NCBI GenBank assembly: GCA_964016885.1
Contig: OZ024743.1
Span: forward strand, 302,622,001 to 302,686,000
From: Eledone cirrhosa
Lineage: Eukaryota
Length of the DNA: 64,000 nucleotides
Reading direction: 5' to 3'
Shown one piece after another: positions 1 through 60,900 of the stretch; the first letter of the stretch is position 1; each line of letters starts with the position of its first letter. The position numbers were made by a program, and so were the translations under genes. The notes under the pieces were generated by a model. That model was not told where the DNA came from, did not search any database, and saw nothing but the letters and a program-made list of their open reading frames with translations.

Positions 1-2136
1 GTTCAGAAAAGAACTCACAGCCTTCTTTAAAGGCTTCAAGCTCTCTTTACATGTTGAGGCCAATATCTCGGTCGTTAATTACCTCGACGTTACCCTCAAT
101 TTAAAGAATGGGTTGTATTACCCGTATAGAAAGCCGAATGATACGCTTAATTACACAAGTAAGCATTCCAACCATCCTGCCAGCATAACCAAGAACCTGG
201 TAAGAAACGTTTCGTTGAGGCTTTCTCGTCTATCTACTAACGAGCATATTTTCAACGACCATTCCACTTTTTACAATGAAGTTCTTGCTCGGAGTGGATT
301 TGTCAATAAGGTAGCATATACAGAGTACGAAAATAGACATAGAAGAAATAGATCCCGTCGCATTTGTTGGTATAATCCACCATATAATATGGAGGTGGAC
401 ACACCATAAGATAAGATCTTTCTTTCCCTTATTACGAAGCATTTTCCCCCCTACACATAAATATAGGAACATTTTTAATAGAAATACTATTAAAATGTCT
501 TACTCTACGACTCCTAACCTTGCACATAACATCACAGCTTCAAATTTAACTAAACTACCCAGCCGTAGGAACACGTGCAACCCTGTAGTTAGTACTAACT
601 GTAATTGTAGGAATCGGGTTGATTGCCCCCTATCCGGGAAATGCCTCTCTAGTAACATTGTCTACAAATGAAAGGTTGTAACACCCACGTCCCGTAGGGC
701 CTACATAGGGTTAACCGCCAATAGATTCAAGCAGCGTCTTTACAAGCATACCCATTCTTTTCGTTACCCTCTAAGAAGGAATATGACGTCACTTTCAGCT
801 TATATCTGGAGTCTAAAAGACAACCACACCCAATATAAGTTACACTGGGAGATCCTAGCTAGGGCTAGATCGTATAACGGAAATAAAAGACCATGTGACC
901 TCTGCGCCGCTGAGGCCCTGGAAATACTCTACGCCACAGACCACATCCTAAACAAAAAAATCTAAGGCAATTTCGGCTTGTAAACATAAATTGCACAAAA
1001 CTTTCTTGTATTACAGCCCCACGTTATACCCTAACGGATAGTACGATCTATACGTGGATATTTACGTCTCGATGTGGTAGCTAAGTTTATGTTTTGTTTA
1101 TACCATTACTTATTTGCATAGGTAAGTATATATTACCTGTATGTTTTGTGAAGGTACGTATACTTTCTCGTACGTATATTTGATTGTATATGTTATGGCG
1201 TATATATTTTTTTAAATATATTCTGGTACATATGGTTTGGTGTTGTGTATACGGGAGTTTTGCGTCTGTGTGAGTATGCAGGTTCGTACGTATGTTGGGT
1301 GTGTGTATATGTGTACTTCATGTTTTGGTTGACTTACGTCTGCGAACATCTGTGTATTTACATGTAGGTATGTGTGTGCGCTTCTTATATACGTATTTAT
1401 TTATTTATATACGTTTATTTAATTAATTATTTATTTGTATACACGCACACACACACACATATTTATATGTGCGTTGTTTTGTATACCTATGGCAAGGGTT
1501 TTCGCGTATGTTTGTGTATGTAGGTATTTGCATGCGTGTATGTATTTATTTAATTTCTTTACCTCTGTATTGTATTATATTTACTTTATTCTTAACTCTG
1601 AAGCGGAGATTCATTCGGTTTCCTAGTTAGAATTTTAGACTATTACTTCAGCTATACCATTTACCTGGTTTTGTCTTTGCGTGCAATTGTACTCCACGGT
1701 CCACGTACGACGTATTATCTTCGTTTTTTCCGTTCATTGCCAGAGAATGTCTCTATGAACCACCTAAGAGAAGATTAGTCTACGACTTCTTTTATACCAT
1801 ACACGTGGTTCTGTCTTTGGGGGTAAATGTTTTTCACCGCTCCTATTAATGACGTATTATATTCGTTTTTTCCCGTTCTTTGCCAGGGAACGCTTCCACG
1901 AACCAAGGGTATCGTCTTCCTGTCTTCCTCCGGTTGCAACGTTTTTTGAAATATCCACTTCCGCGTTTACAGATTGAGTTTGTTAGTTTCAGAAGATCCC
2001 GTTAAGGGTGAAAGCAGCTTAAACTTTAATCTGTTATTTTAATAAATATTTGCTCTACGGTTCTTATATATTTTACATATATTTATCCTTATAGGGCCCT
2101 CTTTGGATTTTAGTCTTCAAATTTATTATTATTACT
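1..2136 (+). mobile_element. Penelope-like element, 3' part (RT C-terminus, GIY-YIG endonuclease, 3' UTR with hammerhead); degenerate and cut by the window edge
   Basis: ORF 113-409 has YYPYRKPN...SNHP and WYNPPY PLE motifs. 600-1000 encodes CNC..CPLSGKC, YIG and CDLC GIY-YIG motifs with stops. Long UTR ends at (TA)n. Confidence 0.9.
1970..2033 (+). ncRNA. Type I hammerhead ribozyme, U4A core variant (family A)
   Basis: CAGATTGA-bulge-AGTTT CAGAAGA TCCC-GTTAA-GGGT GAAA GCAGC TT AAACT TTAATCTG. Stem Ia AGTTT/AAACT, stem Ib CAGATTGA/TTAATCTG. Confidence 0.7.
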
Positions 2137-2979
2137 ATATATATATATATATATATATATATATATATATATATATATATATATATAAATATGCGTGAGT
2201 GTGAGTGTACGTATAATTTATTTTAGTTGTATACCAATGGGTAAAACAAGCAGTTCGGGTTGTTAAAGGATGATACAACCCATCAAGTAAAGCAGTCAAC
2301 GATATACAAATCATTCATCATATATGTGGTGTCTGTGTTCATTAAAACAATAAGAGTAGACCGGAATATTGCTTTAGTATTTTCAGTCAACGAAAGTGCA
2401 ATATATACTTCAATGACACAGCTCTAACATCCGATTATGATGCAATACTCAGTAATTTCATCAGGGGCTCTTTGCAGAATTTTACGTCGAACCCAAACAT
2501 AGAATAGAAGATAGGATATAGGGAAACAAAAAGAAGATATAAATTAGAAAATTCGATTCGTTGACAGCCTGCTAATTTGGAGATGTATTGTTATTAGCAG
2601 GCTGTCCCCGAATCAAATCGCTCCACGCTTTTCTTTTTTCTATATTCCAATATGTTTATATCTCTTGCTAAATATATGTCTATACTTGTGTTTGCAGAAT
2701 CTACTTACCATTGTCCACATCTACTTGCCATTGTCCACATTACGCCTCCACTCGGTAGGGTGCAACTCAAGTGATAATTCTCCAATTCGAAATGATCACT
2801 AGTAACGGATAACTGAATTGAAACCTTTCTTGTTTGATAATGTTCCCTGACGATTTGTGATCTTCAGAGCAAAATAAGCTGATGTTGCTTAATGGGACTG
2901 CCGTACGGACGTTCGACGGAAATACCTAAATATTTATTCATCTTATTAGAGTTTCTCAAGTAAAATATCCTATGGATAA

Positions 2980-59160: not shown

Positions 59161-59739
59161 ACCAAATAATATATATATTTTTTTAAAAATAATATACCAG
59201 TTGCATTTTCGATTTCATCTTTCTCTCTCACTATCTCTCTCTCTCTCTCTCTCTCTCTCTCTATATATATATATATATATATATATATATATATAATCAG
59301 AGGCATGTACTGAATTTGCGAGACACGCTATGTTCTGGCAACATGTCCGTTATATATTCGCACAATATCCAGGTTTTTAATATACTTAGAAGTGACCAGG
59401 GTACTAATAATTCTTCACCAGCTGACGAGCTAGATTTTGGAATTAAAATTTTGGAATCAAAACTGTCCGGGTGATTAGTAGCTTCCACGATTCTTGTTTG
59501 TATTAACTCTTCTTGATTTATTCTTAAATTAAGTCTGGCGAACCTTATTGTCTGTAGTTGGTATTCTTTTCACCTTAGCGAATCTGGTCCCTTACGATTT
59601 GAACACATATATGTATATGTATGTGTTCGTGCTTCTTTTTTCTTTTTTTGTTCAGCTATATTATATATATATATATATATATATATATATATATATATAT
59701 ATATATATATAGAGAGAGAGAGAGAGAGAGAGAGAGATT

Positions 59740-60900
59740 ACAGTAATCAAAGTTCAGTTTAAGTCATTTATTTGCTTACAATTGTTTCCTCCAAACCGAG
59801 GTTTGGATTCTTCGGAGCAACTATTTATAACATACTTGACCTCCTTTTCAACCCAAGAGACACATAAAACATATGCGCATATTGATCAACAGTGGGGTGA
59901 CATTCATCAAATGAAACAGCATGGCAATTTACATATAAAGTGTTACATGATAAAAATAAAAATAAAATAAAATAAAAGCAAGAGTGAAAATAAAGATAAA
60001 CATGAAGCGTTGGCAGTCTATGAAGATAAAGCAAGAGGAAAGCTTAGAGTAGTCAGTGCATGAAGCAATCTCCCGTGTGGCATGCACGCTTGTCTTATTT
60101 ATACATGATTAGAGTGCGTCAGAATGATATTTGCAGGGTCAGGCAGTTGAAGCAGGCAATCGATCTTATAATATATGCTGAATTATTAAGTCATTAATTC
60201 TCATACATCTGTATGATATACAGTCTCGGATGCGGGGAAACACCAAAATATCAAAAACCTTCAACATACTATAAACCTTATTGTATCGTAGGCAAGGTCG
60301 TACCACTGTCCTTGCTCACACCACCACTCACATAATCCATGAGACGCAATATATACATAGAGAACACGCGTCTATCGTATAATTCGCAGTGGTTCAGCCT
60401 ATAGTCAAGCTATAAACGGTATCCAGTCGGTTCTTAATTAATATATCATGCTGTCCAAATTCCGGAAGTGCCTGAATGATTAAGGGGAATTAATGCGTAA
60501 GGGGAGGTAACTAGCTAGTTATTTTAGTTACATTACTATGCTAAACTACATTAATGGTGAATCAAATACGTGCCTATCATGTGAAGTTATAACTAATATC
60601 TAGAGTATGGTACCCATTTATAAGTTAGAGAGTTGTTCATTAAGAGGTACAAGGGTGTATATACTAGGATGATTGCCAACCAATAATTAAGGGGTGTCAT
60701 ATCTGAACGTTCTATAAGAGGAGTCGGACTCTCAAGTCACTGCTCCATGCAAATGTAATACAACAGTAGGACCTGGTATGGTCCCACTATTATATATGCC
60801 ACCCGGTAGGCTCCGGGTCATTGCTTGCCTGCATCTCCAGTAAATCTTCGGTATGGTCCGGAGATCCGATCTCTCATATAAACGCACTAGTCTGGCCAAT
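59740..60900 (-). mobile_element. 3' UTR-only copy of a family-B-related PLE
   Basis: Shares the HHR end and an internal block (TTCCGGAAGTG...TAAGGGG..TTAATG...AGGGGAGG.AACT) with 10576-11800. Confidence 0.75.
59772..59820 (-). ncRNA. Hammerhead, U4C core (family B), best-paired copy
   Basis: TTGCT CCGAAGA A TCCAAACC-TC-GGTTTGGA G GAAA CAATTG TA AGCAA. Confidence 0.8.

What the first reader, a model, noticed from the sequence alone, without database searches (positions are those of the whole stretch)
1970..59820. Very dense hammerhead collection: about 20 motifs from about 10 unrelated families in 64 kb
Seen: HHR motifs at 1970, 8355, 8983, 10614, 12675, 14229, 15785, 16322, 16822, 27686, 28384, 29955, 31114, 31655, 34627, 40168, 54876, 57236, 57847, 58265, 58790, 59121 and 59772, some degenerate. 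Where a coding PLE is attached, the HHR is sense-oriented near its 3' end. Established: PLE pLTRs carry minimal and variant type I HHRs. Inference: this genome holds a very large, mostly non-canonical ribozyme pool forming an autonomous-PLE / non-autonomous-passenger system.
Basis: partly seen in the sequence, partly recalled or inferred. Interest (0 to 1): 0.8.

Follow-up and report, generated by a model that had tools for sequence, protein, structure and literature searches.

The report
Half-million hammerheads from Penelope retroelements
The many hammerhead-shaped RNA motifs in this stretch are real but are an ordinary sample of an animal genome estimated to hold about 450,000 intact ones, carried by a known class of jumping genes and by short non-coding repeats they likely copy; several big families share changed core letters, and whether any of them cuts is untested.

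Summary
All 23 listed sites are copies of type I hammerhead families (12 families); 10 pass my structure descriptor in the window against 0.1-0.7 in shuffles, the rest are decayed. Four more were missed. The window is not a hotspot: 1.17 Mb sampled across the 3.0 Gb genome gave 183 passing motifs (nulls 1-6) in 42 families, about 450,000 genome-wide (340,000-570,000). Rfam sees none. Motifs sit sense-oriented behind Hydra- and Neptune-type Penelope-like ORFs (12 of 28 endonuclease ends vs 13% background) and next to (TA)n. Three ORF-less 592-698 bp units carry the same insertion footprint; one forms dispersed near-identical head-to-head multimers, as expected from a circular template. The system is known (PLE hammerheads, retrozymes, Hydra-1_Obim). 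New are the count, family-fixed U4A and U4C cores, long helix II, and a 5'-end boundary at the predicted cut in one family. 'Mostly non-canonical' holds for the window (14 of 23), not the genome (69% canonical core). Cleavage and expression untested. The scan reported this picture before on other DNA of this genome.

The parts
1..2049 (+). Hydra-type PLE remnant (family B): broken RT/GIY-YIG ORF, 3' UTR, ends at (TA)n
   Evidence: 91.6% to the L058 element over q1426-3470; EN end 567-1038
1980..2030 (+). Hammerhead B: CAGAAGA (U4A) core, U.U at 10.1-11.1, CUU site; helix III shortened in this copy
   Evidence: passes descriptor, -17.2
4851..6978 (+). Hydra-type PLE remnant
   Evidence: DKT motif, CxCx5C linker; blastp/tblastn
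7962..8036 (+). Hammerhead Q, C3G decayed copy, at the 3' end of the 4851 element; missed by reader
   Evidence: 98.7% to a passing copy
8118..9465 (-). Family C: ORF-less 628-bp unit, 2.15 copies, in (TA)n; hammerheads 8349-8497 (fails) and 8977-9125 (passes): UUGAGAA (U3-A8), 82-nt helix/loop II, long helix III, GUC
9536..9599 (-). Hammerhead R, decayed; missed by reader
   Evidence: 92.9% to a passing copy
10569..12766 (-). 5'-truncated Hydra-type PLE (family A): EN ORF 12054-12662, sense hammerhead 10608-10666 (decayed), inverted 5' copy with hammerhead 12669-12727(+)
   Evidence: inverted repeat I6
14219..14320 (+). Hammerhead D; family core CCGACGA (U4C), this copy C3G; inverted stub just upstream
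   Evidence: 11 of 29 copies pass
15784..15840 (+). Hammerhead B, decayed
   Evidence: 86% to passing copies
15889..15945 (-). Hammerhead S, G8A decayed; missed by reader
   Evidence: 93% to a passing copy
16321..16374 (+). Hammerhead E, C3 lost
16817..16865 (-). Hammerhead F: UUGAAAA (U3-A8), 1.6 kb behind an EN remnant at 18439-18806(-)
   Evidence: marginal pass -11.7
27590..28680 (+). Family G: ORF-less 698-bp unit, 1.56 copies; hammerheads 27679-27814 (decayed core) and 28377-28511 (canonical core, 95-nt helix/loop II, GUC)
29957..30018 (-). Hammerhead B, intact family form (U4A)
   Evidence: passes -19.9; A at position 4 in 44 of 46 aligned copies
31121..31196 (-). Hammerhead H, helix III deleted in this copy; family form UUGAGAA with 6-bp helix III, GUC
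31532..34860 (.). Neptune-type PLE remnant as an inverted pair; hammerheads E 31651-31714(-) (G12A) and 34620-34685(+) (core intact, extra base after A9, 2-bp helix I), each about 300 nt behind its EN
   Evidence: inverted repeats I1, I2, I4, I7-I9
38640..38726 (-). Hammerhead M, fully canonical core, GUA; missed by reader
   Evidence: strict descriptor
40161..40216 (-). Hammerhead I (A9G decayed; family CUGAAGA + extra base); inverted half copy at 40541-40581(+)
   Evidence: 8 of 31 copies ORF-linked
54826..57402 (-). Hydra-type PLE (family J): ORF pieces 55330-57297, sense hammerhead 54870-54998, inverted 5' copy 57230-57358(+); both window copies mutated, family form canonical core, C.A at 10.1, 90-nt helix II, GUU
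   Evidence: 21 of 24 copies pass; 17 of 24 ORF-linked
57842..57892 (-). Hammerhead K: canonical core, U.U at 10.1-11.1, palindromic helix III, GUA
   Evidence: passes
58159..58985 (.). Family L: ORF-less ~590-bp unit with inverted stub; hammerheads 58260-58359(-) and 58785-58884(+): UUGAUAA (U3-A8), 59-nt helix II, GUC
   Evidence: both pass; multimers elsewhere
59116..59165 (+). Hammerhead F, helix III mutated
59767..59825 (-). Hammerhead A: CCGAAGA (U4C), A.G at 10.1-11.1, palindromic helix III, GUA
   Evidence: passes -27.9; 40 of 40 scored genomic matches 100% identical over 71 nt

Best explanation
The motifs are type I hammerhead folds at the 3' ends of many Penelope-like retrotransposon families (Hydra and Neptune type) and inside short ORF-less repeat units that PLE enzymes likely copy, and the window is an average sample of a genome estimated to hold about 450,000 intact ones. 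Shown: families, copy numbers, sense position 0.2-1.6 kb behind the endonuclease end, (TA)n targets, inverted 5' copies, partial tandems. Established (Craig 2021, Frangieh 2024): PLE protein nicks AT-rich DNA and starts reverse transcription inside the RNA; copies are 5'-truncated. Inferred: because copying starts just 3' of the hammerhead, nearly every stub, even 60-85 nt ones in family B, carries a whole motif, which explains the numbers; the template must be uncut, re-ligated or circular at that moment. Inferred: ORF-less units C, G, L are retrozymes using the same machinery; L multimers point to rolling-circle copying of a circular RNA; C 5' ends stop at the predicted cut, pointing to a cleaved linear template. 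Cleavage itself, and activity of U4A/U4C cores, are untested.
For: Descriptor 183 hits in 1.17 Mb vs 1-6 in shuffled/reversed controls; 42 unrelated families converge on the same core and helices. 92 of 147 short helix III are perfect palindromes, the dimer design. Sense motif within 2 kb behind 12 of 28 EN ends vs 12.9% background, p=9e-5; antisense 5 of 28. (TA)n within 300 nt 3' of 142 of 183 sites vs 23% random; 73 of 183 have an inverted same-family partner. ORFs show DKT, CxCx5C, CxxC..CxH, no CCHH, matching the Hydra definition and Hydra-1_Obim with its sense 3' hammerhead. L: dispersed loci on 5 chromosomes, arms of 1-5 units at 99.1-100% identity, head to head, mostly flanked by (TA)n. 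C: 28 of 29 5' ends in an upstream unit lie 3' of the predicted cut (q398-584; cut after q387), one 6 nt before it, none in q1-381. Variable N7 and a U3.G8 subfamily beside U3-A8 in C.
Against: No RNA data (no RNA holder listed). Within-family covariation in family A is not above shuffles. MFE folds of single copies mostly do not give the hammerhead junction. G and L show no 5' boundary at the cut, and three C loci read through it. Hammerhead mutants did not affect insertion of the anole PLE in vitro (Frangieh 2024). 16 of 28 EN ends had no passing sense motif. No PLE protein was shown to act on C, G or L.
Confidence: 0.85

Rival explanations
1. Same elements, but the variant motifs (above all U4A family B) are catalytically dead or very slow; they persist as a structural signal or passenger of a successful master element.
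For: B stubs always include the sequence on both sides of the cut, and about 30 of about 55 copies start at q3384-3427, at the front of the motif, so uncut RNA is what gets copied. U4C lowers activity in vitro (Perreault 2011). Uncut RNA is the main substrate for the anole PLE. Copies after insertion decay without selection (13 of 23 window copies).
Against: U4C is fixed in at least four separate families and kept across diverged A subfamilies; the EN tree places U4 variants beside canonical and U3-A8 families, weakly supported; B keeps all other core letters, three helices and a bulged helix I. U4C stays infectious in a viroid.
Confidence: 0.35
2. The ORF-less units are mobilised by LINE enzymes, or their arrays arise by DNA-level tandem duplication, not PLE rolling-circle copying.
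For: RT-bearing LINE remnants lie in the window (37034-38254, 46121-46771; Pfam RVT_1). One C locus is a long satellite-like array. A long tandem array could also give linear multimeric transcripts.
Against: Fixed 3' ends without poly(A), (TA)n on both flanks, head-to-head arms with different unit numbers at unlinked loci at 99.1-100% identity: the PLE footprint (Craig 2021 Fig. 2 legend).
Confidence: 0.1
3. The window is a special ribozyme cluster with a host function.
For: Upper 6% of pseudo-windows when decayed copies are counted.
Against: Average for intact motifs (44% of pseudo-windows equal or exceed it); more than half of its copies are decayed; all belong to dispersed families.
Confidence: 0.03
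4. Chance matches in AT-rich, palindromic DNA.
For: 4 sample hits come from a minisatellite in L082, and two window matches (3000, 15145) rest on one doubtful query.
Against: Shuffled and reversed controls give 1-6 of 183; other single-letter core changes give only 0-4 hits each against 127, 24, 20 and 12 for the four real cores.
Confidence: 0.01

Closest known systems
Hydra-clade PLEs, including Hydra-1_Obim of Octopus bimaculoides (Craig et al. 2021, PMC8557442; passages, section 11, supplement parts 1-2 and searches)
   Same: C-terminal GIY-YIG, DKT, CxCx5C, no CCHH, (TA)n target, sense hammerhead about 100-200 nt from the 3' end, inverted 5' copies; U.U at 10.1-11.1 and NUU sites are in their File S2.
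   Different: All Hydra motifs in File S2 have CUGANGA and short loop II; here Hydra-linked families have U4A, U4C or U3-A8 cores and helix/loop II of 50-115 nt; no genome count was given in what I read.
Minimal type I hammerheads of metazoan PLE pLTRs (Cervera and de la Pena 2014, PMC4209133; parts 1-2 of 4)
   Same: Many families per genome, mostly solo truncated copies, opposite-strand pairs 100-700 bp apart, U3-A8 covariant, extra base after A9, palindromic helix III, 2-bp helix I in Drosophila.
   Different: Counts of 2,000-9,000 per genome; no U4 variants or long helix II in the parts read; most motifs here keep a real helix III.
Animal non-LTR retrozymes (Cervera and de la Pena 2020, PMC7229834, passages; Li, Clavereau, Pollet 2026 preprint, parts 1-2 of 5)
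   Same: ORF-less tandem units with one type I hammerhead each; PLEs proposed as the mobilising enzyme; axolotl 126,247 motifs.
   Different: Units here are 592-698 bp, dispersed, inserted in (TA)n with head-to-head multimeric arms; estimated count about 3-4 times the axolotl figure in a genome a tenth the size (different, more relaxed descriptor).
Natural core variants (Perreault et al. 2011, PMC3088659; passages and section 8)
   Same: U3-A8, U.U at 10.1-11.1, U4C in a viroid.
   Different: Described as rare; U4A not met in the text read (figure not visible); here variants define families of 10^4-10^5 copies.
Small dimeric PLE hammerhead variants (Lunse, Weinberg, Breaker 2017)
   Same: Recalled only: about 150,000 PLE-associated variants with reduced helix III that cleave as dimers.
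   Different: Paper not held; I could not check whether it covers cephalopods or U4 variants.

Membership tests
Type I hammerhead ribozyme | Core boxes CUGANGA / GAAA / UH around helices I-III in 5'-3' order I-II-III-I | tested here: met
   Descriptor passes for 10 of 23 window copies and for copies of 11 of 12 families; variant cores in 7 families
Type I hammerhead ribozyme | Three helices present (family E) | tested here: inconclusive
   Helix I only 2 bp; 0 of 7 copies pass
Type I hammerhead ribozyme | Covariation support within a family | tested here: inconclusive
   Family A, 9 sequences: 90% cells paired, covariation not above shuffles
Type I hammerhead ribozyme | Match to an Rfam hammerhead model | tested here: not met
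   None at E<=10 in the window; none at gathering score in 14 loci holding 77 descriptor hits
Type I hammerhead ribozyme | Site-specific self-cleavage | not testable with these tools
   Indirect only: family C 5'-end boundary
Hydra-clade PLE | RT plus C-terminal GIY-YIG; DKT; CxCx5C linker; CxxC and CxH; no CCHH | tested here: met
   Read in window ORFs and relatives L033, L079, L060, L058 against section 11; Pfam gave no hit for these ORFs
Hydra-clade PLE | (TA)n insertion and sense 3' hammerhead | tested here: met
Hydra-clade PLE | Placement in an RT tree with reference Hydra elements | not tested
   Only visual comparison with the published alignment; my tree held this genome's ENs alone
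Neptune-clade PLE (families E, I, F) | CX2-5CxxC linker and C-terminal EN | tested here: inconclusive
   Linker present in L039 and L085 ORFs; CCHH and tree placement not checked
Non-LTR retrozyme (C, G, L) | ORF-less tandem unit with one type I hammerhead per unit | tested here: met
   628, 698, 592 bp units; 0 ORF-linked of 87, 43, 11 copies
Non-LTR retrozyme (C, G, L) | Expressed as circular RNA | not testable with these tools
   No RNA holder listed

The most novel reading that the evidence does not exclude
This genome holds the largest ribozyme population yet counted (about half a million intact hammerheads), its single most abundant family cuts with a U4A core not described in nature, U4C cores arose repeatedly, and insertion footprints record both routes of the proposed PLE cycle: rolling-circle copying of circles (family L) and copying of RNA whose 5' end was made by the ribozyme (family C).
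Probability: 0.3. Interest if true: 0.7.

Novelty: new variant of a known kind. Interest (0 to 1): 0.43.

Why it matters
The role of hammerheads in PLE transposition is open: in vitro they are slow or dispensable. A genome with 40-55 independent families, young near-identical copies and contrasting footprints (circle-like multimers in L, a cut-site boundary in C, uncut stubs in B) makes the question testable with insertion-end statistics and simple cleavage assays. Family-fixed U4A/U4C cores and long helix II would widen the natural hammerhead consensus; Rfam misses all of these motifs, so ribozyme counts in cephalopod-like genomes are likely underestimated by orders of magnitude. The class of system itself is known.

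Tried and rejected
Rfam: no hammerhead family hit; microRNA hits are microsatellite artefacts. Pfam gave no hit for the PLE ORFs. Genome search with the family B motif found nothing because very common words are skipped; copies were counted in the sampled DNA instead. Sequencing runs: no RNA holder listed; three contig sets of one sample were laid on family C and say nothing on expression or ends. My first reading of 8355/8983 as lacking a core was wrong: the core lies 130 nt upstream. The perfect palindrome at 39790-39895 is a fold-back of the 3' half of family H and has no CUGANGA box: rejected as a ribozyme. 1585-1640 is part of the family B 3' UTR and 20330-20430 has its boxes on opposite strands: rejected. 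Scrambled (SGC) hammerheads: none in window or sample with my descriptor, which had no positive control. Covariation in family A not significant (one search used a misnumbered helix I and is void). The 5'-end boundary did not generalise to G or L. Literature: 'hammerhead'+'U4A' 0 papers; 'self-cleaving ribozyme'+'Octopus bimaculoides' 0; 'hammerhead'+'octopus' gave only Craig 2021 as relevant among 25 listed of 51; the 2026 O. vulgaris repeat paper has no occurrence of ribozyme, retrozyme or hammerhead in its main text. Lunse 2017 not held; supplements of the bioRxiv preprint and figure panels of all papers were not seen and may hold U4 variants or cephalopod counts.
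Full report
Setting. The window is G000:C4:302,622,001-302,686,000 of a 2,996-Mb animal genome, AT-rich and full of (TA)n. Its Penelope-like (PLE) ORFs share motif after motif with Hydra-1_Obim of Octopus bimaculoides, so an octopus-like host is inferred; I did not determine the species.

Observation. A strict type I descriptor found 2-4 motifs against 0-0.36 in 100 shuffles. An energy-scored descriptor (cores C[ACU]GANGA or U[ACU]GANAA, mismatch or extra base at 10.1, loop II to 150 nt) found 11, 10 of them at <= -14, against means of 0.67 and 0.1 in 30 local shuffles and 0 in the reversed window. 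Ten of the 11 are reader sites; one (38716, canonical) was missed. Homology to passing motifs from the genome places all 23 listed sites in 12 families; 13 copies are decayed (e.g. C3G at 14229, helix III deleted at 31114, G12A at 31655, A9G at 40168) or belong to family E, whose helix I is 2 bp and of which 0 of 7 copies pass. Three further decayed copies and a half copy were missed. Rfam reports no hammerhead in the window at E<=10 nor in 14 loci with 77 descriptor hits.

Density. I fetched 117 evenly placed 10-kb stretches from 27 chromosomes-scale contigs. Four of the 183 are false hits in a minisatellite and 11 come from one 310-bp array; none was dropped, the null was subtracted. With decayed copies the estimate is about 770,000. 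They fall in 42 families, Chao2 about 55. The window is average for intact motifs (44% of pseudo-windows have 10 or more) and near the top 6% with decayed ones. The largest count I saw in print is 126,247 in the axolotl (PMC7229834, passages); descriptors differ, the near-canonical subset here (87 of 183) scales to roughly 2 x 10^5, and I recall, unchecked, more than 50,000 in the small S. mansoni genome, which could match the density.

Cores. Of 183: CUGANGA 127, U3-A8 24, U4A 20, U4C 12; every other single change gives 0-4 hits, the level of decay. U4A is family B, the largest (25 of 183; 35 homologues in the sample, about 90,000 genome-wide; A4 in 44 of 46 aligned copies). U4C is fixed in at least four families; family A has 40 of 40 scored matches 100% identical over 71 nt and keeps C4 across diverged subfamilies. 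An endonuclease tree puts U4 variants next to canonical or U3-A8 families, with weak support. 44 of 183 have helix/loop II over 40 nt. U3-A8, U.U at 10.1-11.1, the extra base after A9 and viroid U4C are published; U4A was not met in my search, but Lunse 2017 was not held. Within-family covariation in A is not significant; the support is convergence of unrelated families on one fold, with 92 of 147 short helices III perfectly palindromic.

Link to PLEs. Twelve of 28 endonuclease ends with 2 kb of room have a passing sense motif behind them, against 12.9% background (p=9e-5), 5 of 28 antisense. Each motif family goes with one protein family at a fixed distance (B about 950 nt, H 1,110, J 350, I 240, E 300). 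142 of 183 lie within 300 nt of a downstream (TA)n (23% random) and 73 of 183 have an inverted partner. Nine of the 16 window families have an ORF-linked copy. For K, M, R, S none was found, but A shows only 1 of 52 and B 3 of 54, so that does not prove them non-autonomous. Family B is dominated by 60-85-nt stubs that begin at the front of the motif. ORFs of A, B, H, J, Q meet the Hydra definition; E, I, F look Neptune-type (linker only).

ORF-less units. C (628 bp), G (698 bp) and L (592 bp) close on themselves without an ORF and insert in (TA)n. A young L subfamily forms dispersed insertions of two head-to-head arms, each of 1-5 units at 99.1-100% identity, ending at one of two fixed points, as expected if a PLE enzyme copies a circle; long linear multimers are the alternative. 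In C, 28 of 29 5' ends in an upstream unit lie 3' of the predicted cut, nine at 10-24 nt from it, one 6 nt before it, none in the other 381 nt; from the drop-off rate in the first unit this has p about 1e-9 (loci are best matches to the window's subfamily, duplicates merged by hand). A transcription start near q398-412 or microhomology with (TA)n could also make the cluster, three loci read through, and G (5 of 9 ends beyond the cut) and L show no such boundary.

Mechanism. Established: PLE protein nicks AT-rich DNA and starts reverse transcription inside the RNA; hammerhead mutants did not change insertion in vitro and cleavage needed the protein (PMC11167929, parts 1-2). Inferred: start points lie just 3' of the motif, so truncated copies multiply hammerheads far beyond coding copies; retrozymes borrow the enzyme. 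Untested: cleavage, expression, circles (no RNA holder listed).

Verdict. Observation confirmed; interpretation partly supported. It is a known kind of system (PMC4209133, PMC8557442, PMC7229834, 2026 preprint) at a scale and with core variants I could not find described. Earlier notes of this scan report the same picture in other windows of this genome; my estimate was made before I read them. Interest 0.43.

Noticed in passing
window 39790-39895; L031, L059, L097, L099: Abundant ~100-bp perfect palindrome that is a fold-back of the 3' half of hammerhead family H (42 blast pieces in 800 kb); MITE-like derivative of a PLE end.
   Followed up: partly
window 30729-31001: 129-bp inverted repeat made of two family E 3' tails joined head to head, without the hammerhead.
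   Followed up: no
window 35108-38254 (+) and 42702-47900 (+): Two decayed LINEs with APE and RT remnants (Pfam RVT_1); the second has an Asn-rich ORF1 with a zinc-knuckle-like end, L1/Tx1-like by recall.
   Followed up: no
window 26026-27517 (+): C-rich, frameshifted PLE remnant (DKG-like motif, Neptune-like) cut at its 3' end by (TA)n and the family G insertion.
   Followed up: partly
L081:250-3400: Homogeneous 310-bp tandem array with a canonical hammerhead in each unit (11 units seen): a classical retrozyme/satellite.
   Followed up: partly
G000:C4:157,177,264-157,187,877 (L242-L247): Long array of family C units, partly with an inverted stub at one end.
   Followed up: no
L113, L114, L116, L125, L128, L132, L136, L138 (family C): Subfamily with a U3.G8 wobble core and variable N7 beside the U3-A8 subfamily: a possible intermediate of the C3-G8/U3-A8 switch.
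   Followed up: partly
L278-L307 (family L): Two fixed 3' ends (q592 and q168), in most loci one on each arm of the head-to-head insertion; fits two reverse-transcription start points.
   Followed up: partly
window 15230-15390, 17297-17530, 49862-50030: Copies of another short interspersed repeat, no hammerhead seen.
   Followed up: no
window 3000-3070 (-) and 15145-15210 (+): Weak matches to a single doubtful descriptor hit in L048; probably another repeat, not counted as hammerheads.
   Followed up: partly
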